Origin: Gammaproteobacteria bacterium RIFCSPHIGHO2_12_FULL_63_22
Lineage (GTDB): Bacteria > Pseudomonadota > Gammaproteobacteria > Xanthomonadales > Xanthomonadaceae
Length of the DNA: 64,000 nt
Assembly (NCBI GenBank): GCA_001801685.1
Contig: MGYJ01000031.1
Span: forward strand, 7,909-71,908
Direction of reading: 5' to 3'
This document shows positions 28,193 to 47,334 of the stretch, one piece after another. Under the pieces are notes generated by a model. It was not told where the DNA came from. It made no database searches and saw nothing but the letters and a program-made list of their open reading frames with translations. Made by a program: the position numbers and the translations under genes. The first letter of the stretch is position 1; every line of letters begins with the position of its first letter.

Positions 28193-28268
28193 GGGCCTAT
28201 AGCTCAATGGTTAGAGCGCGGGACTCATAATCCCTCGGTTCCAGGTTCGAGTCCTGGTGGGCCCACCA
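28193..28268 (+). tRNA. tRNA-Ile2 (anticodon CAT, lysidine type)
   Basis: 76-nt cloverleaf, loop CTCATAA, GGTTCGAGTCC T arm, encoded CCA; resembles ileX-type tRNAs more than Met tRNAs. Confidence 0.88.
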
Positions 28269-28269
28269 A
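28254..28269 (+). repeat. attL core of island
   Basis: CTGGTGGGCCCACCAA repeated exactly at 46489-46504. Confidence 0.9.
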
Positions 28270-28378
28270 ATCTAGGTATCCTGGGCGCGACTGGACATCA
28301 AGAAAGGCCTTAAATAAAGGAACATTGTTCCGCTAGGCCCAAGTCGTTGCTCTCCGGTGGTTTACGCTGAGCGCTTGA

Positions 28379-28447: not shown

Positions 28448-29692
28448 ATGCCCCTCTCGGATGCGGCCGTTCGCGGTGCTAGGCCAGCCGAAAAAACGTT
28501 CAAGCTTTCCGATGAGCGCGGAATGTTTTTGCTCGTGACTGCGGCCGGAGGCAAGCTCTGGCGCTTCAAGTACAGAATCCTGGGTAAAGAAAAACTACTC
28601 GCCTTGGGAGCCTATCCCGACGTGAGCCTTCGTGATGCGCGAGAGCGTCGAGATGAGGCGCGCAAACTCGTTGCCGCGGGAATCGATCCGAGCGAACGCA
28701 AGCAGATGCAGAAGCGGGCCGCGCTAAAGGCTGCGGGTGACACTTTTGAATCGATCTCCCGGGAATGGGTTGGCCGTCGTGGCAAGCATTGGACTGCTGC
28801 GCATGGCGCGCGCGAACTTCGTCGCCTCGAACGCGACCTGTTTCCATGGCTGGGAAAGCGCTCTATTTCCTCGATCGACGCCGCCGACTTGCTGGACGCG
28901 CTCCGGCGCGTCGAAGAGAGGGGTGCCATCGAGACAGCGCACCGACTACGCTCCCTGGCATCTCAGATATTTGCCTACGCAATCTCGACACGTCGCGCCT
29001 CGCGGAATCCTGCCGCTGACCTGACGGGCGACGCTCTGCAGCGGGCCACTCCCAAGCATCGAGCGGCCATTACAGACCCGGCCAAGATAGGAGGCCTCCT
29101 GCGGTCGTTTGATGCCTATGAGGGCACCTTTGTCACCAAGTCTGCGCTGCGCCTCGCGCCGCTGCTCTTCGTGCGGCCCGGCGAGCTGCGCCACGCCGAA
29201 TGGTCTGAGCTCGACCTAAGCAATGCCCTCTGGAGCATTCCGGCAGAAAAAATGAAGATGCGCCAAGCGCATGCGGTGCCCCTGAGTACTCAGGCAATAA
29301 CCATCCTGAGCGATCTCCAGGCGCTCACCGGCGGATCTCGTTACGCCTTTCCAAGTGCACGCAGTGACAAGCGGCCCATGAGCGACAACGCCGTTTTGTC
29401 GGCGCTCCGACGAATGGGGTACGCGAAAGATGAGATGAGCGGTCACGGATTCCGAGCGATGGCGCGCACCGTTCTGGACGAAGTGCTGCAATTTCGACCC
29501 GATTTCATCGAGCACCAGCTCGCCCATGCAGTCCGAGATCCCAATGGCCGGGCGTACAACCGCACAGCGCATTTGGCCGAGCGTAGAAAGATGATGCAGG
29601 CGTGGGCTGACTATCTCGACCAGCTCAAAACCGGTGGTGACGTGTTGCCTTTCCAGAAGAAGGGTGGCGAACGCCAGGAGGGGGCGAGGTAA
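28448..29692 (+). CDS. P4/CP4-57-type tyrosine integrase
   Basis: N-terminal arm-binding domain (LSDERGMFL, KLLALGAYP), VRPGELR, HGFR, QLAH, AYNR. Confidence 0.95.
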   Translation: MPLSDAAVRGARPAEKTFKLSDERGMFLLVTAAGGKLWRFKYRILGKEKLLALGAYPDVSLRDARERRDEARKLVAAGIDPSERKQMQKRAALKAAGDTFESISREWVGRRGKHWTAAHGARELRRLERDLFPWLGKRSISSIDAADLLDALRRVEERGAIETAHRLRSLASQIFAYAISTRRASRNPAADLTGDALQRATPKHRAAITDPAKIGGLLRSFDAYEGTFVTKSALRLAPLLFVRPGELRHAEWSELDLSNALWSIPAEKMKMRQAHAVPLSTQAITILSDLQALTGGSRYAFPSARSDKRPMSDNAVLSALRRMGYAKDEMSGHGFRAMARTVLDEVLQFRPDFIEHQLAHAVRDPNGRAYNRTAHLAERRKMMQAWADYLDQLKTGGDVLPFQKKGGERQEGAR

Positions 29693-34463: not shown

Positions 34464-36218
34464 CTAGGCGCGCGCCCGTTCAAAGCCATCCCATCGAGCA
34501 AAAGTGGGATCATCGCGAAGGGTGAGGTCTGAAGCCAGGACGCTGTCGAGTACGCGTCTTAGATCATCGAAGACCCAGAACTGAGCATTCGGGGATAGGA
34601 ACGCATCCATAAGTCTCAGCGCTGACCGAGGCTGCGCGTTCACATGTTGCGAGTCGGCCAGCTCTCGGAGCAGGAATTCGTTCTCGCCCGGGCGGATGAA
34701 CTGTAAGACCGTCGCGACGGCATCTTCGAATGCTCCGTTCGTCGCAAGCGCCATCTCCACCCATGGGCGGGCTTCCTTTGCGCTCCTAATCTGCGGGTCG
34801 CGGGGCCAGAACTTCTGGATCCAAGGCTTTACCTTTTCAGCCCACACCGCGTCCGGATCAACCGTGTGGTCGTCCGCACGCCTAAGCGCACTTACGACCC
34901 AGTCCAGCATGCCTGCGCGCGTCTCCGAACTCATCCGGCGGATCGCGCCCTGTGTGGCTTGGCGCGGCAAATCGTCGAGTCCGATGTGGAGCCCAGCGGC
35001 AGCCAAGGCTTGGGCCAGAGGGCCAACGGTCTCGCCCAGCTGATGGATCCGATCCGCTTGAAAGCAGTCGAGGAAGTCGGTCTTGATCTCGTTCCATAGC
35101 AGTGGATCGAGGTGAGGCTGCCAACCGAAGCCCTGCCAGACTGCGAGCGCTTCGGTCTCGTCACGCTCCCACCGGAAATAGGGTAGCAAATGCAAACGCG
35201 TGAGGTCGGGATCGATCGCGAAGAGATATGAAAGGCGCGAGGCGAAGACGACACGGGCGGGACGATGGCGAGCCTCTCCGGCGCCGACTAGGCGAACAAA
35301 GCGCTCCGTCAGCTCCGCGGGGATGCCTCCACCCACTACCAGGCGCCTTGCGAACAAAGCGTTGAGAAAGGCGAGCGCTAGGTTCCCCATGGACGTGTTG
35401 ATGGCAACAGCAGCCCAGTCGTGATCATCAGGACGGCGCGAATTGGTATCGTCCAGAGCAACCCCTGGCACCACTTTGTCAAACGCTCGCCAGAAGTCCT
35501 CTGTCGACATTTCTCGAAACTGCGCGGAGGATGCCGCGGACTCCAATAGGTAAGCAGCCGCAGAGGAAACACTGGGATCATGTGCCAGCACGTCGTCCAA
35601 TGCAGCGACCAACAAAAGCACATCTTCGCCAGGCGTGGGCGTCGCGGCCTTGGTTCGGAGACCCCAGAGCGTCGCAGTCCAGAGTTCGGCGTCGGGCCCT
35701 GTCCGGTCCGCCACGTCGCGGAGCACCGACATCATCTTCTCCCAATCACTCGCCACCATCTCCCGCCAGCCGTTCAGCGTACCTTCTCGTTGATCTGCGG
35801 ATAGTTCTTCGACAATCTCGGCTGGAGTCATCGCTTGCAGGCGGCGCTTGTCGTCCACAGCCTCTAAGGCGCGCCATCCCGACTGGCTGTAAAACGAGAA
35901 GTGTGCCTGCTCGCCCGGAGCGACATCCCACTTGGGATAGCGCACCCGCAAGCGGGCAAGCTCCGCCTCCATCGCCGCATGTGGCCGCTCGGGATCCAAC
36001 CGTTGCATGATCCGTAGCCGCTCGAATACGCGCCGCGCGCGGAGCTGATCGCGTTCAGCCTCGGGCAGGTGGTCAGACATCCATGCGGGTGGTCCCGCCG
36101 CGATCTTCTCGACCAAGGCGTTACGGGCGTCCTCTTCCAGCTGTGGCCACAGCGCAACCAAGAGGTCATAGACCTCCTTCCTCGCCGAGATATCCCAGAG
36201 TGCGGGCACGTTAGCCAT
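34464..36218 (-). CDS. C-terminal half of Dsr1-like defence-associated sirtuin
   Basis: 584 aa from ATG 36218; helical Trp-rich segments (LWDISARKEV, AINTSMG, VWQGFGW, KPWIQKFWP) recall the Dsr1 C-terminus. Confidence 0.75.
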   Translation of the reverse strand: MANVPALWDISARKEVYDLLVALWPQLEEDARNALVEKIAAGPPAWMSDHLPEAERDQLRARRVFERLRIMQRLDPERPHAAMEAELARLRVRYPKWDVAPGEQAHFSFYSQSGWRALEAVDDKRRLQAMTPAEIVEELSADQREGTLNGWREMVASDWEKMMSVLRDVADRTGPDAELWTATLWGLRTKAATPTPGEDVLLLVAALDDVLAHDPSVSSAAAYLLESAASSAQFREMSTEDFWRAFDKVVPGVALDDTNSRRPDDHDWAAVAINTSMGNLALAFLNALFARRLVVGGGIPAELTERFVRLVGAGEARHRPARVVFASRLSYLFAIDPDLTRLHLLPYFRWERDETEALAVWQGFGWQPHLDPLLWNEIKTDFLDCFQADRIHQLGETVGPLAQALAAAGLHIGLDDLPRQATQGAIRRMSSETRAGMLDWVVSALRRADDHTVDPDAVWAEKVKPWIQKFWPRDPQIRSAKEARPWVEMALATNGAFEDAVATVLQFIRPGENEFLLRELADSQHVNAQPRSALRLMDAFLSPNAQFWVFDDLRRVLDSVLASDLTLRDDPTFARWDGFERARA

Positions 36219-38259
36219 CAAGGAGATGCTCCAATTTTTGGTTCCACGAAAATCCTTGGGCGTGGTTGAGTGCAGCAAGTCCGAGCCTGCGAAGCACGGC
36301 GGCTTCGCTGGCGAGCCACTCACCGACGATTCGACGGCTTGCGACCGGATCAACTTGGTCAAGGTGCTGCCAGCCGTGCCAGATCAGCGTGATTATCAGC
36401 GTCCACTTCTCGTAGCCGCGGTTCTGCGCGTGCGGGACGATAGATGGGCGATGAAAGACGGAGACATCGGTCCCAGCGGATGCTTGCTCTATCAATGTGA
36501 ATAGATCCGCGGTCCGCCTGAGCATCGTGGTGAGTTCAGGCAAGATTGAAGCCAGGAACGCAGCGGATTCGTCGCGCGCCAGGATGCGCTCAACAAGGAG
36601 GCCCACCTGGGCGTCCCCCGGAATTACTACCTTTGCGTTAACGACTTCAGACAATCGTACTCCTCTTGCCTTCTCTTCCTCTCCCTCGGCATTCGGATTG
36701 AAGTCGGGAAGTCGCGTATCGAAAGGTTGTGCGAGGGAAACAGACGTGCGTAGTGCCGACAGCAGATCGACCTTGAACGCCAGAGCGTCGTCCCCGACGG
36801 CGAGCGTTTCGGGCACCTTCAACTCGAAAGGGAATAGCCGGCCCAACGCCAAAGTGTCTACAGAGGTGGACGTAATCAGTTTCCAGAGCTTGGCCAACCC
36901 AGGCTTCACGTCGCCCCCTTCTCGAAGAGATTGGCGAATCCGAGCCAATAGAAAGGGGTGCAAGAACCTCCGGTTGGCGAGTTTCTGGATCACGCGCGCC
37001 GCGAAGCCGTAGTCGTCGATGTGCTGGGCGAGCCAGCGCGCCAGGTGCACCGACTGCGGTGGCAGTTGCGTGTCCCGAGCGTCATGCGCCCAGGGGAACA
37101 GCGGCTCGATGACGAGTTGCGGGTGAGGAGGCAGGTCGTCACCTTCGACTTGAGCGGCTTCCACCGCTTTCTTGTGGCTCGCCAGAATATCCGTCTCACG
37201 TCGCTCGAACTCGTCAAACCACTCGATTGGTGGGCGCTTCTTCATGTCCGCGAACGCCTTGGCGCCGTGGCCGGCGTCTGTCGGTCGCCCACATAAAGCC
37301 CATACGAGGTTCGCCACGTCGCTCGGATTGATAGTGGAGGGCCGTTTCGGGGCAATTCGAGCGATCAAACCCAAAGTGCTTTTTAGATAGTCTTCTCGCG
37401 CATCGGCCCACGCGACGATCGTATTGCGAAGATGCCGATGGTCTTTCGTTTGCCGGTAAAAGATAGGCCTGAGATTGCGGTGACGATAGGGCGCGTCATC
37501 GGGGTCGTCCTTGCCTTTGTGAGGCACAAAGATGTAGGCCGGAGAGCGGTTGGACGCCACGCGCGACGATGAGTTCTCAGCGGCGAAAGCATCAGTCATG
37601 TAACGAAGTACGGGATCGTTGAGGCTGTATCCGATGAAAAGCACGGTGAAATCGCTAAACAGCTTGGCGACAAAACGCGCAGCCCATGCATCGGTCAGAT
37701 AGGAGCGCCCGAAATCCGCACTTGTCAGGACGAGATGTTCGTTAGCACCCACCTCGTCCAGTCGGCCATGCAGGTAGACCACGCTGCGCCAAGTCACAGC
37801 CTTGTCGTTGCGCGGAATAGGCAGGATTGGTCCCGAGTGCAGATCCTTGCCGAAGTGCCATTCGGTTCTTGCTTGCTCGAATAGCGTGTCGAAGTTCGTG
37901 GTAACGAGCCGAACTCCAGTGTCGCCGCGTAGCTTCGCGAGCCTAAGAATGGCTCTGTGCATGTCGAGCGAAGTTGGCGCTGCGGAAAGACACCTGTGGA
38001 CAGCGTCTCGCACCTGCGCCCTTCCGAACTTACCTTCAAGGCTGCCCAGCATGCGATCTGGCCAGAGCCATTCAGAAGACTTCTTCATGGGAAGCGTCTC
38101 TGCAAGCTCGTCATAGCAATACTTGACCAAGCCGACATAGCTAGGGAGCCCAGCCCCCATCGAGATGCCTGCGCCGCAGAAGATCACTACACGATCATCT
38201 TCGAGCGACTGCACTAGCTCGTCCGGGACGACGGGCCCTGCTTTGACGAACTTAGGCAT
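36211..38259 (-). CDS. N-terminal half of Dsr1-like defence-associated sirtuin (SIR2 NADase domain)
   Basis: FCGAGIS, TTNFD, YLHG, SADFGRSYL, FIGYSLNDP SIR2 motifs; GGAGGG RBS before ATG 38259. Confidence 0.85.
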   Translation of the reverse strand: MPKFVKAGPVVPDELVQSLEDDRVVIFCGAGISMGAGLPSYVGLVKYCYDELAETLPMKKSSEWLWPDRMLGSLEGKFGRAQVRDAVHRCLSAAPTSLDMHRAILRLAKLRGDTGVRLVTTNFDTLFEQARTEWHFGKDLHSGPILPIPRNDKAVTWRSVVYLHGRLDEVGANEHLVLTSADFGRSYLTDAWAARFVAKLFSDFTVLFIGYSLNDPVLRYMTDAFAAENSSSRVASNRSPAYIFVPHKGKDDPDDAPYRHRNLRPIFYRQTKDHRHLRNTIVAWADAREDYLKSTLGLIARIAPKRPSTINPSDVANLVWALCGRPTDAGHGAKAFADMKKRPPIEWFDEFERRETDILASHKKAVEAAQVEGDDLPPHPQLVIEPLFPWAHDARDTQLPPQSVHLARWLAQHIDDYGFAARVIQKLANRRFLHPFLLARIRQSLREGGDVKPGLAKLWKLITSTSVDTLALGRLFPFELKVPETLAVGDDALAFKVDLLSALRTSVSLAQPFDTRLPDFNPNAEGEEEKARGVRLSEVVNAKVVIPGDAQVGLLVERILARDESAAFLASILPELTTMLRRTADLFTLIEQASAGTDVSVFHRPSIVPHAQNRGYEKWTLIITLIWHGWQHLDQVDPVASRRIVGEWLASEAAVLRRLGLAALNHAQGFSWNQKLEHLLDG

Positions 38260-38534
38260 TTCCACCCTCCTGTCGTGTCGAAGTACATCTTAGGACGGCA
38301 ACCAGGTCGTCGGGCTGCACCTTCTGGCCCTCAGAAGACATTGATTGAGAGCGGTACACGCCAAGAAAGGGACTCGGGAGCTCACCTAGCACCCGAATTG
38401 GGTGCCTAGGGTGCCGTCATAATGGGGATATTAGTTAGAAGCAATTCCCTCATACCCCCAATAACGTCCCCGGCAACGGACCGATTGGCCTCATCGACGA
38501 AAAGCCGCTTCCTGACAAAGGCTAGACCGGTGCC

Positions 38535-40973
38535 TCAAGCCTGGGGTTGACGCTGGTAAAGGTATTTTTGGAACCCGGCGAAGAGCCGGCCGATTTCTTC
38601 GGCCTTCCCCAGATCCTCCAAGGCATCACGAATTGAGTCGTTGTACTTGAGCTTCAGCAACGGAGTGAGTTTCTCCTGGTCAAGCTCCTGAACGCCCACA
38701 TTGACGTAGTGGGATAGCACAAACTCTAGGAACGCCTGCTGCTTGTCATTGCATTGTTTAGTGATAGCCGCCTTGGCCTTCGCTGCGCGTTCCTCCCGGC
38801 TGATCGGTGGCAGTGCATAGGCCACGTTGGCCAGAACATCAAAGAGGTCGCTCTTCTGCGCGTCAATTAGCTTCTGCATCTCCTCCAACTGGTCATTGGC
38901 AAAGCCTTTCTCAGCCAGAGCTTGGAGAAGTTTCTTACGAGTGTCCGGCATGCTCCACAAGGTACGCAGCTCATCCTCGTCCTTGAAGAACTCCGGCAGC
39001 GTGCCGAATAGGCTTTCCAGGAACTGGGCGGCAGACATGGGCTTGCCGTCGGCACTCCAGAAGGTCGTGGCCACCATGCTTTGAATGTGGCGGGCCTTGC
39101 CGTCTGCCAGTTTCACGAGGACCTTCTTCTTGCATACACAAGGGTCTTCGCCGCATTTTTCGCAGGGTGGCCGTTCGCATTCACAGGGCGACTTGCCGCA
39201 TTTCTCACAATGTTTCGGCTCGCAAGTGCATGGCGACTGATTGCAAACCCGGCACGGCTCCGGTGGCGTCTCTTCGCAGGTGCATGGGTAGTTGCCGCAC
39301 TTCTTGCAATCCTCCGGCGGAAGCGGCTCGCCATCCCACTCCGGATCGTTGAAGTGCTCGTGGGCCTTCACGAAATCGTAGACGGTGAAATAGTCCTTGC
39401 CGTCGTAGAGCCGTGTGCCCCGGCCGATGATCTGCTTGAACTCGATCATCGAGTTGATCGGCCGCATCAGGACGATGTTACGGATGTTCCTAGCATCAAC
39501 TCCCGTCGACAGCTTTTGTGAGGTCGTCAAGATGGTTGGGATCGACTTGTCGTTGTCCTGGAAGTCACGCAGGTGCTGGTCGCCCCTGGCCCCGTCGTCA
39601 GCCGTGACCCGCACGCAGTAGTCAGGATCGGTGCTGGTCTTCGTCTGGTTGATCAGGTCGCGCACCATTAGCGCGTGTTCCTGAGTTGCGCAGAAAACCA
39701 GCGTCTTCTCGCGCTGGTCGATCAAGTCCATGAAGAGTTTGATGCGATGTGCTTCGCGCTCCCGGATCACGATGACGCGATTGAAGTCGCCCTCGGTGTA
39801 GCGTTTTCCTTGCACCACCTCGCCTTCCACAACTGCATCGTCCGGAGTGTAGGTGTAGTCATCAATGGTTGTGGCGAACTGTCTGACTTTGAACGGGGAC
39901 AGGAAGCCATCGTTGATTCCTTCCTTCAGCGAGTAGCTGTAAACAGGCTCTCCAAAGTAGGCATAGGTGTCGACGTTGTTCCTACGCTTGGGTGTGGCTG
40001 TCAGACCCAGCTGCACAGCTGGCTTGAAGTAATCGAGGATGGCCCGCCAGTTGCTCTCGTCCCTGGCACCGCCCCGGTGGCACTCGTCAATGACGATGAA
40101 GTCAAAGAAGTCCGCTGGGTAGTCACCAAAATAGGGGGTATCCCCGGGGCCACTCATGAAGGTCTGGAAGATCGTGAAGAAGACGCTCCCATTCTTCGGC
40201 ACGCGGCCCTTCTTGCGAATCTCATCGGGGGCAATTCGCACAAGAGACCCCGGAGCCTTGTCCTCGAACGGAGTGAAGGCGTTGTAAGCCTGATCGGCCA
40301 GGATGTTTCGATCGGCCAGGAACAGAATGCGGGGCCGGCGGGTCGGTTCTCCCGGCCGCTTCCAGTCGTCTAGGTTCCACCGACTGTAGAACAGCTTCCA
40401 GGCTAGCTGGAAGGCGATAAAGGTCTTGCCGGTGCCTGTTGCGAGGGTCAGCAGGATACGGTCCTTGCCGGCCGCTATGGCGGCCAGGACGCGGTCAATG
40501 GCGATGTCCTGGTAGTAGCGGCTCTGCCAAGTGCCGCCGTGGTCCTCGAAGGGCACCTGGACAAAGCGGTCGCGCCAGGCGTTCGTCTCGGCGAAGGTCC
40601 GCGCCCACAGTTCCTCCGGCCCCGGGAAGGCTGAGACATCGCCCTCGGTGCCCGTGGCCATGTCGATGCCGTAGATCTTCTTGCCATTGGTCGCGTAGGT
40701 GAAGCGCACGGCCAGCTTGGCGGCGTAGCTTTTAGCTTGCCCTACGCCCTCGGTATAGGGCTTGTCCCATGCCTTGGCCTCGATCACGGCCAGCTTGGTG
40801 TTCCGGTAGATCAGCACATAGTCGGCAATCTCTGGCGTCGCCCTTTTCCCGCCCCCCTGCAGTCGCCCCGGCGTTATGTGCTCCCGGCGGATTCGACTCC
40901 CTTCAACCACGCCCCAGCCGGCCGCCTTGAGGGCGGGATCAATGTGCTCGGCGCGGGTCTCGGCTTCGTTCAT
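38535..40973 (-). CDS. hsdR: Type I restriction enzyme R subunit (EcoEI-like)
   Basis: IEAK nuclease motif, ATGTGKT, IDECHRG, QIIGRGTR. Confidence 0.93.
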   Translation of the reverse strand: MNEAETRAEHIDPALKAAGWGVVEGSRIRREHITPGRLQGGGKRATPEIADYVLIYRNTKLAVIEAKAWDKPYTEGVGQAKSYAAKLAVRFTYATNGKKIYGIDMATGTEGDVSAFPGPEELWARTFAETNAWRDRFVQVPFEDHGGTWQSRYYQDIAIDRVLAAIAAGKDRILLTLATGTGKTFIAFQLAWKLFYSRWNLDDWKRPGEPTRRPRILFLADRNILADQAYNAFTPFEDKAPGSLVRIAPDEIRKKGRVPKNGSVFFTIFQTFMSGPGDTPYFGDYPADFFDFIVIDECHRGGARDESNWRAILDYFKPAVQLGLTATPKRRNNVDTYAYFGEPVYSYSLKEGINDGFLSPFKVRQFATTIDDYTYTPDDAVVEGEVVQGKRYTEGDFNRVIVIREREAHRIKLFMDLIDQREKTLVFCATQEHALMVRDLINQTKTSTDPDYCVRVTADDGARGDQHLRDFQDNDKSIPTILTTSQKLSTGVDARNIRNIVLMRPINSMIEFKQIIGRGTRLYDGKDYFTVYDFVKAHEHFNDPEWDGEPLPPEDCKKCGNYPCTCEETPPEPCRVCNQSPCTCEPKHCEKCGKSPCECERPPCEKCGEDPCVCKKKVLVKLADGKARHIQSMVATTFWSADGKPMSAAQFLESLFGTLPEFFKDEDELRTLWSMPDTRKKLLQALAEKGFANDQLEEMQKLIDAQKSDLFDVLANVAYALPPISREERAAKAKAAITKQCNDKQQAFLEFVLSHYVNVGVQELDQEKLTPLLKLKYNDSIRDALEDLGKAEEIGRLFAGFQKYLYQRQPQA

Positions 40974-41098
40974 GGAGGAATCCTACAACTACCCGGTGCG
41001 GTCTTGGTGCAGCAGGACCCATTCAATGCCTCCGGCGGCACTAGCTTCTGCCGGTTGACGAGGAAGGGGCGTTCGTTTCGAACCCTCACTCTGGTGAA

Positions 41099-41440
41099 CT
41101 ACCCCTCGGCTTGCTTGCGCTCGGCAACTGTCCGTCTACGCCATTCTTGGATGAAACCAACAAACTCCTGGATTAGGATTTCCCGCATCTCGTCTTCATC
41201 CATGCCGAACTCTGTGGGCAACGGGAAATAGTCACTGGCAGCAGCGGCGATGTAGTCAGCCGCAAGGTCTGTGGCCGAGTCCCGATCATCGGCACCGAAC
41301 AAGAGTTCCTCGGAGGTGGAAATGTGGCTATCGAGCCAAACGCCCGGATCGCCGAGGTTGTCTAACTCTACAAATTGCTGGCCGGGCCAGTCGCTCGGCC
41401 AGTGGGCAATGATCGGCTCTGCGGGTTCGTCGTTGCTCAT
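41099..41440 (-). CDS. Acidic hypothetical protein between hsdS and hsdR
   Basis: 113-aa ORF with ATGA overlap on the hsdS stop. Confidence 0.65.
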   Translation of the reverse strand: MSNDEPAEPIIAHWPSDWPGQQFVELDNLGDPGVWLDSHISTSEELLFGADDRDSATDLAADYIAAAASDYFPLPTEFGMDEDEMREILIQEFVGFIQEWRRRTVAERKQAEG

Positions 41441-42615
41441 AGCTCCCCACTGAAAGCTTGGCGCAGCAGCGACTTCTTCAACGCTTGCAGCGCGGCGATC
41501 TTACGCTCGTAGAGTCGGGCGAGGCGTTGGGTTTCATGGTGGAGGTCATCAAGGTTCGCGGCGAGTTGCTTTTGCTTCTTCACGTCGGGAAGCAAAACCC
41601 GAAACTCGAACAAGTGGTCGCGATTGACTTTCGGCATTCCCGCCCGGGCAGAACCTCGGATTGCGTAATCCGTGAAGGGTTTACTCAGCAACAAGTGAAA
41701 GAGGTAGTCGCGAGTAACTACGCTGGGGATTGGCGCGAGCGGATACATGTCTGCGCTGCACAATCCCTCGAAGTCTGGGCGAGCAACCTTCATCAGATAA
41801 GGGCGAATCTTGCTGTACAGCACCATTGATTCGTCGAAGAGGAACTTGCCGGAAATCAGGCCTTCTTCTCGTGCCGTCTTGAGGTCTACGAACACGCCGG
41901 TCTTTGATTCGATGTTACCCGCGCCGACGTGGGTCAAATCGAGGAACTCTTTTTTCCGTGGGTCAACGAGCGTTGAAGTAATCGCGCAGACTTCGTCGAA
42001 TCGCTTCTCCACCCACCCCGGGCCGCGCTGGGTGAAGACGGATTGGAGGCGGCTTTCGAAGATTCCGCGGACGTTTTGGAGGTTCTTTTCGGCATTGGCT
42101 TTGGCGGTGGCGATGCCCTCAAACGCTTCGTCGAGCAGGCCGACAATCCGCTGCTGTTCTGCCAGCGGGGGGGCGGGAATCGTGAGAGCCCCAAGCTTCG
42201 TCGCATTGAATCCGCCTTGTGCACTACCAGATGAACCGTCTTTGATCGACTGCCAGTAGCCAGCGGTTTGGAAGAACAGCATGACGAACTCCGGCAGCAA
42301 CTTCTTGTCGAGCAAGCGGAGCCGAATCAGATACGAAGCGAACACTGCTTCGGGCGGCTCGTCCACGAGGAAGCTCTTGCCAGTCGTTGCTCCGGTGCGC
42401 GCAAAAACAATGTCACCGCTGGCCAGCCGGTATTTGGGAATATCGGCGCTTTCGATCTTGCAGTAAGGCACAGTGTCCCATTCAACACGGTCGTCCTGGA
42501 TGTCCGTGATGCGGAGAAAACGCGGGCCGACTAGTTCTCTGGTCGCGCTTTCGGTGTAGCCGTAGTTGATGGCCGACACCGCTCCGAGCTCTTTAGTTTC
42601 CCAACCCTTCTTCAT
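41437..42615 (-). CDS. hsdS: Type I restriction-modification specificity subunit
   Basis: Two TRDs with conserved PPLAEQQRIV and KKSLLRQAFSGEL segments. Confidence 0.93.
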   Translation of the reverse strand: MKKGWETKELGAVSAINYGYTESATRELVGPRFLRITDIQDDRVEWDTVPYCKIESADIPKYRLASGDIVFARTGATTGKSFLVDEPPEAVFASYLIRLRLLDKKLLPEFVMLFFQTAGYWQSIKDGSSGSAQGGFNATKLGALTIPAPPLAEQQRIVGLLDEAFEGIATAKANAEKNLQNVRGIFESRLQSVFTQRGPGWVEKRFDEVCAITSTLVDPRKKEFLDLTHVGAGNIESKTGVFVDLKTAREEGLISGKFLFDESMVLYSKIRPYLMKVARPDFEGLCSADMYPLAPIPSVVTRDYLFHLLLSKPFTDYAIRGSARAGMPKVNRDHLFEFRVLLPDVKKQKQLAANLDDLHHETQRLARLYERKIAALQALKKSLLRQAFSGEL

Positions 42616-44069
42616 AGCAGCGCCTTGATGTTGCCCAGCACTTCCGCGCTCTCGGCGTCCAGCGCGGCGATTTCGTCCATGATGTCTTGCGGGCTGCGGT
42701 GCGCGATTTCCTCGCCACCGTTGGGGTTCTTCACGGACAAATCAAAGCTCTTCGGATCGATGGCCGCCACGTCCACGCTCCAGCTTTTGGGCGAGTCGAC
42801 TTTGGTCTTTTGCAGTGCGATGAACTCGGCGAGGTCGGCGTCGTTGAGCGGGTTGGTCTTGCCCATGTTGCGGCCGGGGTCGAGCTGGTAGAACCACACC
42901 TTTCGGGTCTTTGTGCCCTTATCGAAGAACAGTACTACGGTCTTCACGCCCGCGCCGATAAACGTTCCGCCGGGGCAGTCGAGTACCGTGTGCAGGTTGC
43001 AGCTTTCCAGGAGCAGCTTGCGCAGGCTGACCGAGGCGTTGTCGGTGTTCGACAGGAAAGTATTCTTAATGACGATGCCGCCGCGCCCGCCGGCCTTGAG
43101 AATCTTTATGAAGTGCTGCAGGAACAGGAACGCGGTTTCGCCGGTGCGTATGGGGAAGTTCTGCTGTACCTGCTTGTGTTCGTTGCCGCCAAAGGGCGGA
43201 TTGGCCAGAACCACGTCATATCGATGTTTTTCCTGGATGTCGGCGAGGTTCTCCGAAAGCGTATTGGTGTGGAGGATATTGGGCGCCTCGATGCCATGCA
43301 GGATCATGTTCATGATCGCGATGACGTAGGCAAGCGACTTTTTCTCCTTCCCGTAGAACGTCTTCTCCTGGAGAAACCGGTCCTGGGCGACCGTGCGCTT
43401 GGGATGGGTTCTCTTCAGGTAGTCGAATGCCTCGCACAAGAAGCCCGCAGAGCCGACCGCCCCGTCATAGATGCGCTCCCCTAGCTGGGGCCGTGTGACC
43501 TCGATAATGGCGCGGATAAGCGGGCGTGGCGTGTAGTACTCGCCGCCGTTCCGCCCGGCGTTGCCCATGTTCTTGATCTTCGCTTCGTACAGGTGCGATA
43601 GCTCGTGCTTCTCAACCTGGGAGCGGAAGCGGAGTTCGTCGACATGCTCGATTACCTCCCGCATGTTGTAGCCGCTGGAGATCCGGTTCTTGATCTCGCC
43701 GAAGATCTCGCCGATCTTGTACTCAGTCGTATTGGTGCCGCTTGCTCGTTGCTTGAACCCGTGCAGATAGGGGAAGAGCTTGTTGTTGACGAAGTCCCGC
43801 AGGTCATCCCCTGTCAGCGCCTTGTTGTGGTCCAGCTTGCCGTCCTTGCCCTTGGGGGCGGCCCACGCCTCCCAGCGGTATGGCTTGTCCAGGATGTAGC
43901 TGTACTTCTTCCCCTCCAGCTTGGCCTGGTCGAATAGGTCCTGCTCTAGGCCGTCAAGGTACTTGAGAAACAGCAGCCAAGACGTCTGTTCGGTGTAGTC
44001 CAGTTCTGTGGTGCAACCGGCTTCCTTCCATAGGACGTCATCGATGTTCTTGAAGGTCTGTTCAAACAC
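42612..44069 (-). CDS. hsdM: Type I restriction-modification N6-adenine methyltransferase
   Basis: GEYYTPR, DGAVGSAGFL, ANPPF. Confidence 0.95.
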   Translation of the reverse strand: MFEQTFKNIDDVLWKEAGCTTELDYTEQTSWLLFLKYLDGLEQDLFDQAKLEGKKYSYILDKPYRWEAWAAPKGKDGKLDHNKALTGDDLRDFVNNKLFPYLHGFKQRASGTNTTEYKIGEIFGEIKNRISSGYNMREVIEHVDELRFRSQVEKHELSHLYEAKIKNMGNAGRNGGEYYTPRPLIRAIIEVTRPQLGERIYDGAVGSAGFLCEAFDYLKRTHPKRTVAQDRFLQEKTFYGKEKKSLAYVIAIMNMILHGIEAPNILHTNTLSENLADIQEKHRYDVVLANPPFGGNEHKQVQQNFPIRTGETAFLFLQHFIKILKAGGRGGIVIKNTFLSNTDNASVSLRKLLLESCNLHTVLDCPGGTFIGAGVKTVVLFFDKGTKTRKVWFYQLDPGRNMGKTNPLNDADLAEFIALQKTKVDSPKSWSVDVAAIDPKSFDLSVKNPNGGEEIAHRSPQDIMDEIAALDAESAEVLGNIKALL

Positions 44070-44157
44070 CGGGATTGATCCTTAATGCGAGTAGTGCAGC
44101 TATTTGAGCATCAAGACAGCCTACGTGAAACCGGGCGAGAGCTGGCCATTGGCGACG

Positions 44158-44430
44158 TCACCGGTTCTCTGGACGAACGCCACGGCCAGGAGCCGATCGC
44201 TGCGGGACGGTGGGTGCGACGAATGGGGGCCGTGCCCCCGGCGCATGGAATGGTCTGACCCAATTCAGAAGCACAAGGCCGACCCGGATCTGACCGACGC
44301 GGATGAATTCATGCGTGCCGATGTGCTCGGCAGGGCTGGAGGTGCGCGTAACCGATCGCTTTCCGTTGGCCAGCGTCAGCACGACCTTGGTGCCGACTGA
44401 GTGCTGCGCGTTCCATTCGTTCGACGTCAT
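44158..44430 (-). CDS. Small phage-like hypothetical protein
   Basis: WNAQHSVGTKV..TRTSSPA resembles small phage proteins from memory; 3' part of the longer track ORF. Confidence 0.4.
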   Translation of the reverse strand: MTSNEWNAQHSVGTKVVLTLANGKRSVTRTSSPAEHIGTHEFIRVGQIRVGLVLLNWVRPFHAPGARPPFVAPTVPQRSAPGRGVRPENR

Positions 44431-44886
44431 AGCTTCAGTCTGGCGACCGCCCTTCCAGTATCCTGAAACTCGGAGAAGGAGACGTATCGATGCCATCGGA
44501 CCACCAGCCAAAGCAATGGACGCTCGAGCAGTCGGCAGAGATCGCCGACCACTGGCAAAAGCTGCTCGACGCGGCCGACGCCGGCGACGAGCGCGCCAGG
44601 GACTTCCTAGGGACCTTTGGGCCCTGGGCGAGCGCGCAGTTGGCGAAGCGGCGAAAGTCGTGACAGCGATGGGAAAGCCGCCGACCTTGCCATCTGGCGG
44701 CCAGTGCTGAGCGAACATCGCCGCACTGCTACAAAATTGGGCGCCGCCTTGAGCAAGTGGCCAGCGGGGCCGGGGTGGGTGCCGTGGAACATTTTTGTTC
44801 CACGGAATAAGGGGCTTCGAGTGGTGTAACGTGCTTGCCAAGCTGAATCCCTGCCGGCCGGCGGGGTATATGCGACTAGGGTTTAG

Positions 44887-44916
44887 TTGCAATGTCAGGT
44901 GCTGAGCTAATACGAT
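44887..44916 (+). promoter_or_regulatory. Possible sigma70 promoter of the hicA operon
   Basis: TTGCAA, 18-nt spacer, TACGAT, 13 nt before ATG 44930. Confidence 0.35.
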
Positions 44917-44929
44917 GGGCCATTGATTG

Positions 44930-45199
44930 ATGTCCAGCCGACTAAAAAAGAATCTCTTCAGACTCGAGGCGTGCCCAAAGGACTACACCTGGAACGAACT
45001 GACCGCGGTGATGCGTGGGCTGGGCTTTGTCGAAGCGAAGGGTTCAGGCGGATCGGCGGTCAAGTTCCGGCATCCGGATCATCCCGAGCAAGTGGTCAAT
45101 TTGCACAAGCCACACAACCGAAATCCGCCGACTGTATTGGTCGTTTACTTGAGAAAGCTGGTGGCGAGGCTGAAAGAATGGGGGTATCTGGATGCCTAA
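44930..45199 (+). CDS. hicA: HicA family mRNA interferase toxin
   Basis: WNEL..LGF, GS.VKF, LHKPH; 89 aa. Confidence 0.88.
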   Translation: MSSRLKKNLFRLEACPKDYTWNELTAVMRGLGFVEAKGSGGSAVKFRHPDHPEQVVNLHKPHNRNPPTVLVVYLRKLVARLKEWGYLDA

Positions 45200-45665
45200 T
45201 ATGTTGAACTACAACAACTACACCGCAACAGTTGAGTTTTCCGAGGAAGACGCGCTGCTTGTCGGGCAGCTAAATAACGTCGACGCACTGGTGGTTTTCT
45301 CGGCGGATAATGTCGCGGATCTAATCACCGAGTTTCACGCCGCTGTTGACACTTACCTGGCAGATTGCGCTGAGGCTGGCATCGATCCTGAAAAGCCCTA
45401 TAAGGGCTCCTTCAACGTTCGCGTCGGCGTGGAACGGCACCGCCGCGCGGCGTGCACAGCTGCTCGCTGGAGCGTTTCGCTCAACGAGTTCGTGGGGATC
45501 GCAATTGACCAGGCTGTTGATCGAAATGATCGTGGCGGGACGGTTACGCTTGTCAAGGAAAAGATATACGCCGGCGACCTCTCGGAACAGGGCTTCGAAT
45601 CCATTCGCGTGGTCGATGATGCAGTGGGTTCGATCTATGCAGCTGCGCCGTATACACGGCAATGA
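45192..45665 (+). CDS. hicB: HicB family antitoxin with ~45-aa C-terminal extension
   Basis: YNNYTATVEFS, FHAAVDTYLADC, PEKPYKGSFNVRV, SLNEFV. Confidence 0.9.
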   Translation: MPNMLNYNNYTATVEFSEEDALLVGQLNNVDALVVFSADNVADLITEFHAAVDTYLADCAEAGIDPEKPYKGSFNVRVGVERHRRAACTAARWSVSLNEFVGIAIDQAVDRNDRGGTVTLVKEKIYAGDLSEQGFESIRVVDDAVGSIYAAAPYTRQ

Positions 45666-46186
45666 CCACCGATCTCTTGGCGTTTCGCCTGATCAACGCT
45701 CGCATCAGCAAGCTCGTTGTCGATGAGCGTGCCGGGGGTGTGCTCGTCGTCGGGAAGGAACTCGATGTGGTGATCTCCCGATCCTTGCCAGAGGTGTCCG
45801 TTCACCCTTGGGGAACTCGTCCGGTTATCGAGCTGAGGGTTTCGGCCTCGGCAACGCTAAGCGGAACTGGCGAGCGAACTATGCTCGACAAGGTGTTCCA
45901 TGTTGAGTGCACGGGCGCATTCGTGTCTGCCGGTGGGAAATCTGACGGAAAGTTGGACGCGTTTCAGCCCATGGTTGAAGCTTTTTCGCGGTCCCTTTAT
46001 TGGATACTGCGCGAGCGTCTGGATTCCGTTTTTGCTGTGACGGCGCTCCGGTCTGCGAATCTCCCGTGGGACTTACCGGAGATTGGTCATCGTCTCGCTG
46101 ATACAGGGCCTCAACCGCCGCCAGCCGCGACGAAGAGGGCGCCAGTGCCCCGCAAGAAGCTGCCACGAAAGCGATCGGAGAGCTAG
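45662..46186 (+). CDS. SecB-like chaperone
   Basis: Four alternating beta strands ending VECTGAF, then helix SLYWILRERL and ANLPWDLP, the SecB-like pattern; ATGA overlap with hicB. Confidence 0.7.
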   Translation: MTTDLLAFRLINARISKLVVDERAGGVLVVGKELDVVISRSLPEVSVHPWGTRPVIELRVSASATLSGTGERTMLDKVFHVECTGAFVSAGGKSDGKLDAFQPMVEAFSRSLYWILRERLDSVFAVTALRSANLPWDLPEIGHRLADTGPQPPPAATKRAPVPRKKLPRKRSES

Positions 46187-46189
46187 CGA

Positions 46190-46402
46190 ATGGCGGGCGA
46201 GCCAAAAGCGTTTGTGCTCTATTTGGATGGTGCAGGAGAGTGGCGCTGGCGACTGTTTGCGCCCAATGCAAAAGTCATCGCCGACAGTGCGGAAGGTTAT
46301 CGAGACCGGGCCGATGCCATTCACGGGATACATTTGGTCGCCCAGATTGCGCCGGACACGAACATCTGGGATCCCGCTCAGAAGAAATGGGTTGTGGGCT
46401 AA
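46190..46402 (+). CDS. YegP / DUF1508 family protein
   Basis: FVLYLDGAGEWRWRLFAPNAKVIADSAEGY; GGAG RBS inside the secB-like 3' end. Confidence 0.88.
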   Translation: MAGEPKAFVLYLDGAGEWRWRLFAPNAKVIADSAEGYRDRADAIHGIHLVAQIAPDTNIWDPAQKKWVVG

Positions 46403-46405
46403 CCG

Positions 46406-46427
46406 CTGGGGGCATCTCTGGGGGTAG
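46406..46427. repeat. Putative integrase arm-type sites, right end
   Basis: CTGGGGGCAT 46406-46415 and CTGGGGGTAG 46418-46427. Confidence 0.55.
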
Positions 46428-46488
46428 CCAGGTCGACCGGCCGCCCAAGACCCGCGCAGATTGCCCCTCGGACACGACTATTCGGGGG

Positions 46489-46504
46489 CTGGTGGGCCCA
46501 CCAA
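46489..46504 (+). repeat. attR core (duplicated tRNA 3' end)
   Basis: Identical to 28254-28269. Confidence 0.9.
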
Positions 46505-46536
46505 TTCGAACTCGCTCGCGACGCGGAGCTCCACGA

Positions 46537-47334
46537 TTGGACAGCGATCCTGCTCACCGCAATGACCACGCGAATGCCGGCGCCTCCGAAGGGCGTGCAT
46601 TCGTGGTTCCCTGCCACGCGGTCCGGCCGGGGCAGATTGTTCACTGGCTGCAACGCGGCTGGCGCGATTTCACGCGCGCGCCCGCGCTGTCCCTGCTGTT
46701 CGGTGGCGTCATCGCGCTGATCAGCGCGGCGGTATCGGCGCTGGCCTGGTCGCTCGGTCGTTTCGCGCTGCTGGCAACCCTGCTTTCGGGCTTCGTATTC
46801 ATCGCGCCGCTGCTGGGCGTCGGCCTTTACTGCGTCAGCCGCGCGCTGGAGGCTGGGCGGACACCGCGCCTGGGTGATTCGTTCGTGCTGGCGAAGCGGG
46901 TGATCGGGCAGGCCGGCGTGTTCGCCATCGCGCAAGTGGTGATCTTGCTGCTGTGGTCGCGCGCCGGGATGTTGGTCAGCGCGCTGGTGACCATCCAGCC
47001 AGGCGACCCGCGCTCCCTGTTCGAGTTCCTGCTGATCGGTTCGGCGATCGGCTCGGTGTTCGCCGCCTTCACGTTTGCAGTCGCGGTTTTCTCGCTGCCG
47101 ATGATCGCCGACCGCGATGTCGACATGGTCACCGCCTGCATTTCCTCGGTGCAGGCGGTGCTGCGCAACAAGCTGACCATGCTGTGCTGGGCCGGCACGC
47201 TCGCCCTGCTGACCGCGATCGGTTTCGCGACGGCATTCGTCGGCCTGGTGGTGATCATGCCGTGGCTGGCCTACGCCTGCTGGCATGCCTATCGCGACAC
47301 GCTGGATGCATCATCGTGGCCGCAGTTGCCGTGA
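46537..47334 (+). CDS. DUF2189-like membrane protein
   Basis: WLQRGWRDF, SGFVFIAP, FSLPMIADRD, WHAYRD; start uncertain (TTG 46537 with GGAG). Confidence 0.8.
   Translation: MDSDPAHRNDHANAGASEGRAFVVPCHAVRPGQIVHWLQRGWRDFTRAPALSLLFGGVIALISAAVSALAWSLGRFALLATLLSGFVFIAPLLGVGLYCVSRALEAGRTPRLGDSFVLAKRVIGQAGVFAIAQVVILLLWSRAGMLVSALVTIQPGDPRSLFEFLLIGSAIGSVFAAFTFAVAVFSLPMIADRDVDMVTACISSVQAVLRNKLTMLCWAGTLALLTAIGFATAFVGLVVIMPWLAYACWHAYRDTLDASSWPQLP

What the first reader, a model, noticed from the sequence alone, without database searches (positions are those of the whole stretch)
44930..46186. HicA-HicB-SecB-like toxin-antitoxin-chaperone (TAC) operon in a defence island
Seen: hicA, hicB and a third gene are translationally coupled (8-nt ATGCCTAA and 4-nt ATGA overlaps). 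HicB continues about 45 aa past the usual RHH end (GGTVTLVKEKIYAG...AAPYTRQ), and the third gene has a SecB-like strand/helix pattern. Known: TAC antitoxins carry a C-terminal chaperone-addiction (ChAD) tail, and the HigBA-, MqsRA- and CmdTA-type TACs act as phage sensors. Inference: this is a HicAB-type TAC in which a phage protein outcompetes the HicB tail for the chaperone, freeing the HicA RNase to abort infection. I know of no characterised anti-phage HicAB-TAC; its position beside Dsr1-like and RM genes supports a defence role.
Basis: partly seen in the sequence, partly recalled or inferred. Interest (0 to 1): 0.85.

Follow-up and report, generated by a model that had tools for sequence, protein, structure and literature searches.

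The report
HicAB toxin-antitoxin with cryptic SecB-fold chaperone
Three tightly coupled genes on a mobile defence island encode a HicA toxin, a HicB antitoxin with an extra tail, and a partner protein that folds like the chaperone SecB but is invisible to sequence annotation; this is a rare variant of the known toxin-antitoxin-chaperone design, and its anti-phage role is plausible but untested.

Summary
hicA (44930-45199), hicB (45192-45665) and a third gene (45662-46186) overlap by 8 nt and 4 nt. HicB carries about 45 residues beyond the point where its two-gene relatives end. The third protein has no Pfam, NCBIfam, PADLOC or PDB sequence match. An AlphaFold model built on 47 homologues (pLDDT 87.6) hits only SecB and the M. 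tuberculosis TAC chaperone Rv1957 at the top of Foldseek (probability 1.00, TM 0.5-0.6).

The third-gene family is rare: 48 cluster representatives among 1.84 billion, and none in 399 other genomes of the same class. In all 11 independent loci examined it follows hicA-hicB. HicB is long in 10 of these and cut by an in-frame stop in the eleventh.

The module is the last cargo of an 18-kb tRNA-Met integrative island that also carries Dsr1 and a type I RM system. Two relatives lie beside prophage CI repressors.

It is a HicAB-type TAC, but that class was already described and validated (Bordes 2016). What is new is the divergent chaperone lineage, which usually ends in a Lys/Arg-rich tail. Phage sensing through chaperone competition is only an analogy with HigBAC and CmdTAC.

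The parts
44930..45199 (+). hicA: long-form (89 aa) HicA-family toxin, a putative mRNA interferase
   Evidence: Pfam HicA_toxin 1.4e-6, 28.7 bits against a cut-off of 27. It belongs to a roughly 87-aa subfamily with invariant LHKPH, in which the canonical GSH histidine is replaced by GS[A/R]. The match to PDB 1whz is weak.
45192..45665 (+). hicB: antitoxin of 157 aa, made of an N-terminal domain, a ribbon-helix-helix and a C-terminal tail
   Evidence: Pfam HicB 3.2e-17. 73 homologues fall into two length classes, 110-128 aa and 148-158 aa. The 8-nt overlap with hicA is conserved across loci.
45522..45662 (+). ChAD-like C-terminal extension of HicB (residues about 111-157)
   Evidence: Alignment A4: short homologues stop here. 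Long homologues share a hydrophobic strand-like patch (TVTLVKEKI and equivalents) and a C-terminal aromatic motif (APYTRQ, AAYGRSH, PAYN). The long form is found whenever the third gene is present.
45662..46186 (+). Third gene: SecB-fold protein of 174 aa, the putative dedicated chaperone. The core is residues 1-142. Residues 143-174 form a disordered Lys/Arg/Pro-rich tail (46088-46183).
   Evidence: AF2 model on a 47-sequence alignment: pLDDT 87.6, four strands plus a 27-residue helix. The top 18 Foldseek PDB hits are all SecB or Rv1957, probability 1.00. The top BFVD hits are phage SecB. No sequence-family hit. The basic tail occurs in 40 of 47 family members.
46190..46402 (+). DUF1508/YegP-like gene of 70 aa, 3 nt after the third gene; a possible accessory fourth gene
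   Evidence: Pfam DUF1508 5.8e-13 and NCBIfam HVO_2922 2e-18, the latter below its cut-off. The same arrangement occurs in the closest relative's contig. It is absent in the other nine loci.
44782..44805 (.). Perfect inverted repeat CCGTGGAACA-N4-TGTTCCACGG, about 125 nt upstream of hicA; a candidate operator (inference only)
   Evidence: No sigma-70 consensus promoter was found in 44400-46700.
28193..28272 (+). tRNA-Met (CAT) gene with attL, the left end of the island
   Evidence: ARAGORN; direct repeat D1.
46481..46507 (+). attR, an imperfect copy of the tRNA 3' end. The TAC and DUF1508 genes are the last cargo before it.
   Evidence: Direct repeat of 27 nt at 85% identity, with the shared core CTGGTGGGCCCACCAA. 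GC is 0.58-0.61 inside the island and about 0.65 outside.
28448..29692 (+). Tyrosine integrase of the island
   Evidence: Pfam Arm-DNA-bind_3, Phage_int_M and Phage_integrase.
34464..38265 (-). Dsr1 (SIR2) defence gene split into two overlapping ORFs
   Evidence: PADLOC Dsr1 profile positions 2-655 match 36211-38265 (5e-111). Positions 670-1234 match 34464-36362 (9e-80).
38535..44069 (-). Type I restriction-modification system hsdR-hsdS-hsdM
   Evidence: Pfam and PADLOC.

Best explanation
This is a three-gene toxin-antitoxin-chaperone (TAC) module of the HicAB type, carried as cargo on an integrative defence island.

Proposed mechanism:
- HicA is a HicA-family RNA-cleaving toxin. HicB neutralises it through its N-terminal domain and represses the operon through its ribbon-helix-helix domain.
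- The roughly 45-residue HicB tail acts as a chaperone-addiction element. It makes HicB unstable or unable to fold unless the third protein holds it.
- The third protein is a sequence-divergent SecB-fold chaperone, presumably a tetramer.
- When the chaperone is titrated away, HicB is lost, HicA is freed and translation stops. The most likely competitor is an abundant phage structural protein, as shown for HigBAC and CmdTAC. The result is abortive infection or growth arrest.

Shown here: the gene order and coupling, the tail, the SecB fold, the strict three-gene linkage, and the mobile and defence context.

Inferred: chaperone binding to the tail, chaperone dependence of HicB, RNase activity of this HicA subfamily, and the phage trigger.
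For: - Fold: the AF2 model has pLDDT 87.6 and pTM 0.76. The 18 best Foldseek PDB hits are SecB (1qyn, 1fx3, 1ozb) and Mtb SecB(TA) bound to its ChAD peptide (5mtw). Probabilities are 1.00, E-values run down to 5e-5 and target-normalised TM is 0.5-0.6. The best viral hits are phage-encoded SecB.
- Topology: four long strands, a 27-residue helix, then a conserved extended segment (T.LR..LPWD, pLDDT above 90). This matches the description of Mtb-SecB(TA) in PMC6377645.
- Linkage: all 11 independent loci carrying the third-gene family have hicA-hicB directly upstream, including members with E-values of only 1e-3 to 1e-5.
- Tail: HicB is 148-165 aa in those loci. Relatives without the third gene are 110-127 aa.
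- Coupling: the overlaps are conserved.
- Precedent: a HicAB-SecB(TA) TAC with a HicB ChAD at residues 119-159 was validated in E. coli (PMC5105189). TACs defend against phage when a phage protein competes for the chaperone (bioRxiv 10.1101/2024.02.24.581848; PMC11618068).
- Context: an 18-kb tRNA-Met island with integrase, Dsr1 and type I RM. Relatives lie next to prophage S24/CI repressors and integrases.
- Redundancy with export SecB is unlikely, because the genome keeps a separate housekeeping SecB.
Against: - No sequence-level link to SecB. No Pfam SecB hit in any of 47 members, no PDB sequence hit, and hhalign probability of only 2-6%.
- TM-scores of 0.5-0.6 are moderate.
- The canonical catalytic GSH histidine of HicA is absent in this subfamily.
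- No PADLOC model hits any of the three proteins.
- The family was not found in the phage or plasmid collections.
- A prophage two-gene HicAB in P. putida gave no phage defence against the phages tested (PMC12894663).
- In one relative (L002) the HicB tail is cut by an in-frame stop while the third gene is intact. Either the tail is dispensable there or that copy is decaying.
Confidence: 0.65

Rival explanations
1. The same TAC biochemistry applies, but its biological role is addiction or stabilisation of the mobile element. Loss of the island or prophage would cause post-segregational growth arrest. A general stress switch, as proposed for the M. tuberculosis TAC, is a related possibility. 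In neither case would the module sense phage.
For: The module sits at the extreme end of an excisable tRNA-Met island, next to attR. Its relatives lie inside prophages and next to integrases. TACs were first described as stress-responsive, horizontally transferred modules (PMC3581621).
Against: It is placed beside CI repressors and among Dsr1 and RM genes, which is typical of defence cargo. Three other TAC types have proven anti-phage activity (bioRxiv 10.1101/2024.02.24.581848). In P. putida, a prophage HicAB did not stabilise the prophage either (PMC12894663).
Confidence: 0.22
2. The third protein has a SecB-like fold but is not an antitoxin chaperone. It could be a nucleic-acid-binding adaptor or regulator that uses its Lys/Arg-rich tail, or a second neutraliser acting on HicA. 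The HicB tail would then serve another purpose, for example as a degron.
For: A conserved basic disordered tail occurs in 40 of 47 members (mean net charge +5) on an acidic core, unlike the acidic SecA-binding surface of SecB (PMC6377645). A similar C-terminal HicB motif (APYARH) occurs in two genomes where the third gene is a different protein of about 100 aa. The tail motif is therefore not specific to this partner.
Against: [quoted passage not shown] The strict co-occurrence of the tail with a third gene is what the chaperone-addiction model predicts.
Confidence: 0.1
3. The adjacency is fortuitous, and the third ORF is unrelated to hicAB or is not a real gene.
For: None, apart from the lack of annotation. 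NCBI calls the Stenotrophomonas homologue a hypothetical protein.
Against: Linkage holds in 11 of 11 loci across sequences as low as about 20% identical. Translational coupling is conserved, and the family is conserved well enough to give a confident fold.
Confidence: 0.01

Closest known systems
Methylomonas methanica MC09 HicAB-SecB(TA) TAC (Metme_2813/2812 plus chaperone; Bordes et al. 2016, PMC5105189)
   Same: The gene order toxin-antitoxin-chaperone is the same. The toxin is a long-form HicA; the N-terminus MSAKLRI, deduced from the published primer, resembles MSSRLKK here. HicB is about 159 aa with a roughly 40-aa C-terminal ChAD, against 157 aa and about 45 aa here. Both have a SecB-type third protein.
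   Different: The published TAC chaperones were found by PSI-BLAST from Rv1957 or through Pfam PF02556. The chaperone here is not detectable that way. I could not fetch the Mmet locus: the primer search of genome contigs found nothing. Direct identity values are therefore unknown. The Mmet system was tested for toxicity control, not for phage defence.
M. tuberculosis HigBA1-SecB(TA), Rv1955-1957 (PDB 5mtw; PMC6377645)
   Same: The chaperone fold is the same: four strands, a long helix, then an extended C-terminal segment. It is among the top Foldseek hits. The antitoxin carries a C-terminal chaperone-addiction extension.
   Different: The toxin-antitoxin family differs (HigBA against HicAB). 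Sequence identity is 16-18% in the structural alignment. No HMM-level match exists. The chaperone here ends in a Lys/Arg-rich tail.
Anti-phage TACs: E. coli HigBAC, CmdTAC and MqsRAC (bioRxiv 10.1101/2024.02.24.581848; PMC11618068)
   Same: They are three-gene TACs on prophages or defence islands. The chaperone is the sensor and is titrated by a phage structural protein. This is the mechanism proposed here.
   Different: The toxins differ (HigB, the CmdT ADP-ribosyltransferase, MqsR). Those chaperones are recognisable SecB homologues. Defence here is untested.
Housekeeping export chaperone SecB (Pfam PF02556)
   Same: The fold is shared. There is a faint sequence echo in the correct register (AGIF against AGFV strand).
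   Different: The genome has its own SecB elsewhere, scoring 180 bits against PF02556. The third gene gives no PF02556 hit. Its tail is basic, not acidic, and a conserved LPWD segment replaces helix alpha-2.

Membership tests
TAC (toxin-antitoxin-chaperone) systems | Three co-oriented, tightly linked genes in the order toxin, antitoxin, chaperone | tested here: met
   Overlaps of 8 nt and 4 nt. The same order is found in 11 of 11 loci.
TAC (toxin-antitoxin-chaperone) systems | The antitoxin carries a C-terminal extension (ChAD) that its two-gene homologues lack | tested here: met
   Alignment A4 shows a tail of about 45 aa. Short homologues are 110-127 aa and lack a third gene.
TAC (toxin-antitoxin-chaperone) systems | The third protein is a SecB homologue (fold) | tested here: met
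   AF2 pLDDT 87.6. The top 18 Foldseek hits are SecB or Rv1957, probability 1.00.
TAC (toxin-antitoxin-chaperone) systems | The antitoxin depends on the chaperone for stability and for toxin neutralisation; the chaperone binds the ChAD | not testable with these tools
   This needs co-expression and solubility assays.
SecB family (Pfam PF02556) | A sequence match to the family model above its cut-off | tested here: not met
   None of 47 members hits PF02556 at E of 1 or below. hhalign against 30 SecB sequences gives probability 6%. The genome's own SecB scores 180 bits.
SecB family (Pfam PF02556) | Tetramer (dimer of dimers) with an acidic SecA-binding surface and C-terminus | tested here: inconclusive
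   The oligomeric state was not modelled. The core is acidic (mean net charge -4.4), but the C-terminal tail is basic in 40 of 47 members.
HicA toxin family (PF07927) | A Pfam match above the cut-off | tested here: met
   28.7 bits against a cut-off of 27. The profile of six homologues retrieves 2384 proteins (E <= 0.001); most of the 120 listed carry a precomputed PF07927 hit.
HicA toxin family (PF07927) | The catalytic histidine in the G-S-H motif | tested here: not met
   The position is Ala or Arg (GS[AR]V) throughout this roughly 87-aa subfamily. Other residues are conserved in its place: LHKPH (H59 and H62 invariant in both alignments) and H48, which is invariant among the close TAC-linked homologues only. 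Activity is not testable here.
HicB antitoxin family (PF05534, RHH type) | A Pfam match and an RHH sequence pattern | tested here: met
   62.6 bits against a cut-off of 21. The pattern FNVRV...HR.A...SLN.FV is conserved.
Known anti-phage defence systems (PADLOC-DB v2) | A match of any component to a defence-system model | tested here: not met
   No hit for any of the four proteins at E of 1 or below. The neighbouring genes do hit Dsr1 and type I RM models.

The most novel reading that the evidence does not exclude
The third gene founds a separate, sequence-cryptic lineage of SecB-fold chaperones. These are dedicated to HicB, lack the SecA-binding features and usually carry a Lys/Arg-rich tail. 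With HicAB it would form a prophage- and island-borne abortive-infection system in which a phage protein displaces the HicB tail. That would be the first HicA-based TAC defence. It would also show that fold-level searches uncover TAC systems that sequence annotation misses. Tail-bearing HicBs pair with at least one further unrelated third gene of about 100 aa, which hints at repeated invention of antitoxin guardians.
Probability: 0.3. Interest if true: 0.62.

Novelty: new variant of a known kind. Interest (0 to 1): 0.5.

Why it matters
TAC systems are an emerging class of phage sensors in which a chaperone reads out the presence of viral structural proteins. Only HigB-, MqsR- and CmdT-based versions have been shown to defend against phage.

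A HicA-based version would extend that principle to another toxin family. Because its chaperone is invisible to Pfam, NCBIfam and PADLOC, it would also show that current defence-system catalogues under-count TACs.

The strict pairing of a long HicB tail with this chaperone gives a clean, small and testable system of three genes and about 1.3 kb. It could be used to study chaperone addiction, and to ask what a basic tail on a SecB fold does.

If defence is not found, the result is still a correct annotation for a family now labelled as hypothetical protein.

Tried and rejected
- Single-sequence AlphaFold of the third protein was useless (pLDDT 39). Only the alignment-based model was used.
- Sequence searches for the third protein found nothing meaningful. 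This covers Pfam, NCBIfam, PADLOC, PDB phmmer and a PDB profile search.
- hhalign against the genome's own SecB, and against an alignment of 30 SecB sequences, gave a register-consistent but non-significant match.
- The search for related loci in genome contigs found no relative.
- An exact search for the published Mmet-hicA primer, meant to fetch the validated HicAB-TAC for direct comparison, found nothing. The paper's supplement holds no sequences.
- tblastn of the third protein against the phage and plasmid collections gave no match.
- Weak profile hits in three genomes of the same order (L011-L013) are not TA-linked and are not Pfam SecB. I set them aside.
- A second SecB paralogue in genome G120 is not TA-linked.
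- I checked DUF1508 as an obligatory fourth gene. It is present only in the window and its closest relative, so it is not part of the core.
- A promoter scan and an Rfam scan of 43900-46700 found nothing.
- Chance adjacency is rejected on the 11 of 11 linkage.

Full report
**Observation**

- hicA runs from ATG 44930 to TAA 45199. A TTG lies one codon upstream, but all homologues begin MSxRL, so 44930 is the likely start.
- hicB starts at ATG 45192, inside the hicA stop region (ATGCCTAA, 8-nt overlap), and ends at TGA 45665.
- The third gene starts at ATG 45662 (ATGA, 4-nt overlap) and ends at 46186.
- A 70-aa DUF1508 gene follows 3 nt later, at 46190-46402.

Pfam confirms HicA_toxin (28.7 bits against a cut-off of 27) and HicB (62.6 bits, residues 55-102). 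The 8-nt hicA/hicB overlap recurs in at least five related loci. The coupling is therefore a conserved feature and not chance.

**The HicB tail**

A search with HicB returned 73 relatives in two length classes, about 110-128 aa and 148-158 aa.
- In alignment A4 the short proteins end just after the ribbon-helix-helix, at about window residue 110-113. The long ones continue for 40-50 residues.
- The tails vary in sequence but share two elements. One is a hydrophobic strand-like patch (TVTLVKEKI, SVTVVRAPI, KITIAQQAI). The other is a C-terminal aromatic motif (AAPYTRQ, AAYGRSH, PAYN).
- This matches the published description of ChAD elements as C-terminal extensions that vary in length and composition (PMC5105189).

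**The third protein**

It has no hit in Pfam, NCBIfam, PADLOC or PDB sequences. The family is small.
- The word-indexed search of 5.8 billion proteins found 4 members.
- An exhaustive HMMER search of 1.84 billion representatives found 48.
- None of 47 members hits Pfam SecB, and a family profile finds no PDB chain.

A single-sequence AlphaFold model failed (pLDDT 39). With the 47-sequence alignment the model is confident (pLDDT 87.6, pTM 0.76).
- It has four long strands (8-20, 34-40, 56-66, 77-89) and a 27-residue helix (98-124).
- A well-ordered extended segment follows, carrying the conserved T.LR..LPWD motif. After that comes a low-confidence tail.

Foldseek against the PDB puts only SecB (E. 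coli 1qyn; H. influenzae 1fx3 and 1ozb) and the M. tuberculosis TAC chaperone Rv1957 bound to its ChAD peptide (5mtw) in the top 18. Probabilities are 1.00, E-values run from 5e-5 to 2e-3, and target-normalised TM is 0.5-0.6. The next hits are, from my own recollection, the SecB-like fold proteins 2o2a and 2hng. Against viral models the best hits are phage-encoded SecB.

The topology matches the description of Mtb-SecB(TA), including an extended segment after helix alpha-1. In that protein the residues following alpha-1 are among those most important for ChAD control (PMC6377645).

Profile-profile comparison with SecB is not significant. Probability is 2-6%, with a pairwise E-value of 0.006-0.03. 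The alignment is in the right register, however: strand 3, the AGIF/AGFV strand 4, and helix 1. My reading is that the fold is SecB-like and sequence membership in PF02556 is not met.

The genome has an ordinary SecB on another contig, scoring 180 bits. That protein clusters with an Arenimonas sp. SecB.

**Linkage**

This is the strongest functional evidence. I examined every locus I could fetch that carries a member of the third-gene family, including members with E-values of only 1e-3 to 1e-5.
- The loci are the window, the contig of P0002, L001, L002, L004/5, L006-8, L009, L014, L015, L016/17 and L018.
- All 11 independent loci have hicA and hicB immediately upstream in the same orientation (systematic HMM scan).
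- HicB there is 148-165 aa. The one exception is L002, where an in-frame stop cuts the tail and the remainder (...PLYTQH) is still readable behind it.
- Conversely, loci with short HicB lack the third gene.
- Among the 29 best HicB loci from 400 genomes of the same class, none has this gene or a canonical SecB within 1.5 kb, and almost all of those HicBs are short.

**Rarity and mobility**

- The third-gene family is absent from 36 genomes of the same genus and from 399 other genomes of the same class.
- In the window the module is the last cargo of an 18.2-kb island. The island is bounded by tRNA-Met (28193-28268) with attL at 28246-28272, and by attR at 46481-46507. It carries a tyrosine integrase and has GC of about 0.59, against 0.65 outside.
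- The island also carries Dsr1, split into two ORFs, and a complete type I RM system.
- In Stenotrophomonas sp. Ps181 (L004) and in L009 the module lies in a prophage, directly beside the S24/CI-type repressor. In L006-8 it lies between integrases.
- NCBI labels the Stenotrophomonas homologue a hypothetical protein.

**Family-specific features**

- Chaperone tail: 40 of 47 members end in a disordered Lys/Arg-rich tail (mean net charge +5) on an acidic core (mean -4.4). This differs from the acidic SecA-binding features of export SecB described in PMC6377645. It argues for a dedicated role, not an export role. What the tail does is unknown.
- Toxin: the HicA belongs to a large subfamily of about 87 aa in which the canonical G-S-H histidine is Ala or Arg. 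The LHKPH motif is invariant in both HicA alignments, while H48 is invariant only among the close TAC-linked homologues.

**Mechanism**

The best-supported reading is a HicAB-type TAC.
- The HicB tail makes the antitoxin dependent on the SecB-fold protein.
- Loss or titration of that protein frees HicA.
- A phage trigger is inferred by analogy with HigBAC (lambda gpV) and CmdTAC (T4 capsid protein) (bioRxiv 10.1101/2024.02.24.581848; PMC11618068). The defence-island and prophage-immunity-region contexts support it circumstantially.

It remains untested. A prophage two-gene HicAB in P. putida showed neither defence nor stabilisation (PMC12894663). An addiction or stabilisation role for the island is the main rival.

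**Comparison with what is known**

- HicB was listed among TAC antitoxins in 2013 (PMC3581621).
- The Methylomonas methanica HicAB-SecB(TA) system was validated in 2016, with a HicB ChAD at residues 119-159 (PMC5105189).
- The kind is therefore known. The new element is a chaperone lineage that sequence methods do not connect to SecB, with its own C-terminal features and strict dedication to HicB.
- I could not retrieve the Methylomonas locus to measure how far apart the two chaperones are.

**Limits**

- There is no experimental evidence of any kind.

**Verdict**

It overstates novelty, and the phage-sensing part is speculative.

Noticed in passing
L072 (G470:C1) about 1077-2105 on the minus strand, and L079 (G306:C408) about 1456-2242: Two other genomes of the same class have long-tailed HicB followed by a different conserved third gene. 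The L072 tail ends ...ADAPYARH, close to AAPYTRQ in the window. The third gene is about 100 aa, 45% identical between the two genomes (E 6e-16), has no Pfam hit, and has a Lys-rich C-terminus in L072. Tail-bearing HicBs therefore pair with at least two unrelated-looking partners.
   Followed up: partly
window 46190-46402: A DUF1508/YegP-like gene of 70 aa lies 3 nt after the chaperone gene. The same gene follows the chaperone in the closest relative's contig (P0002) but in none of the other nine loci. It may be an accessory fourth gene of one subclade.
   Followed up: partly
L002 900-1030: In this relative an in-frame stop truncates HicB right at the start of its tail (...ESVTIGH*). The rest of the tail is still readable in frame and the chaperone gene is intact. 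It is either a natural tail-less variant or a decaying copy.
   Followed up: partly
window 34464-38265 (minus strand): Dsr1 is split into two overlapping ORFs. PADLOC Dsr1 profile positions 2-655 map to 36211-38265 and positions 670-1234 map to 34464-36362. This could be a frameshift or a natural two-part form.
   Followed up: partly
window 44070-44929: There is an 860-bp gap between the divergent hsdM and hicA genes with no Pfam or Rfam hit and no consensus promoter. It contains a perfect inverted repeat, CCGTGGAACA-N4-TGTTCCACGG, at 44782-44805, and a 57-aa ORF at 44490-44663 of unknown status.
   Followed up: partly
window 45662-46186 and family alignment A2: A Lys/Arg-rich disordered C-terminal tail is conserved in character in 40 of 47 members of the SecB-fold family (mean net charge +5), on an acidic core. 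Its function is unknown.
   Followed up: partly
window 28193-28268: ARAGORN calls the island's integration-site tRNA a tRNA-Met (anticodon CAT). An earlier first-stage note calls it tRNA-Ile2. CAT alone cannot distinguish the two, and I did not resolve it.
   Followed up: no
L012 (G052:C8) 1426-1875 and L013 (G054:C91) 1486-1956 on the minus strand: Proteins of 149-156 aa weakly match the third-gene profile (E about 1e-4 to 1e-6). They sit in a conserved chromosomal context between an HhH-glycosylase-like gene and a VanY-like peptidase, are not TA-linked, and have no Pfam hit. They may be another distant SecB-like group.
   Followed up: partly
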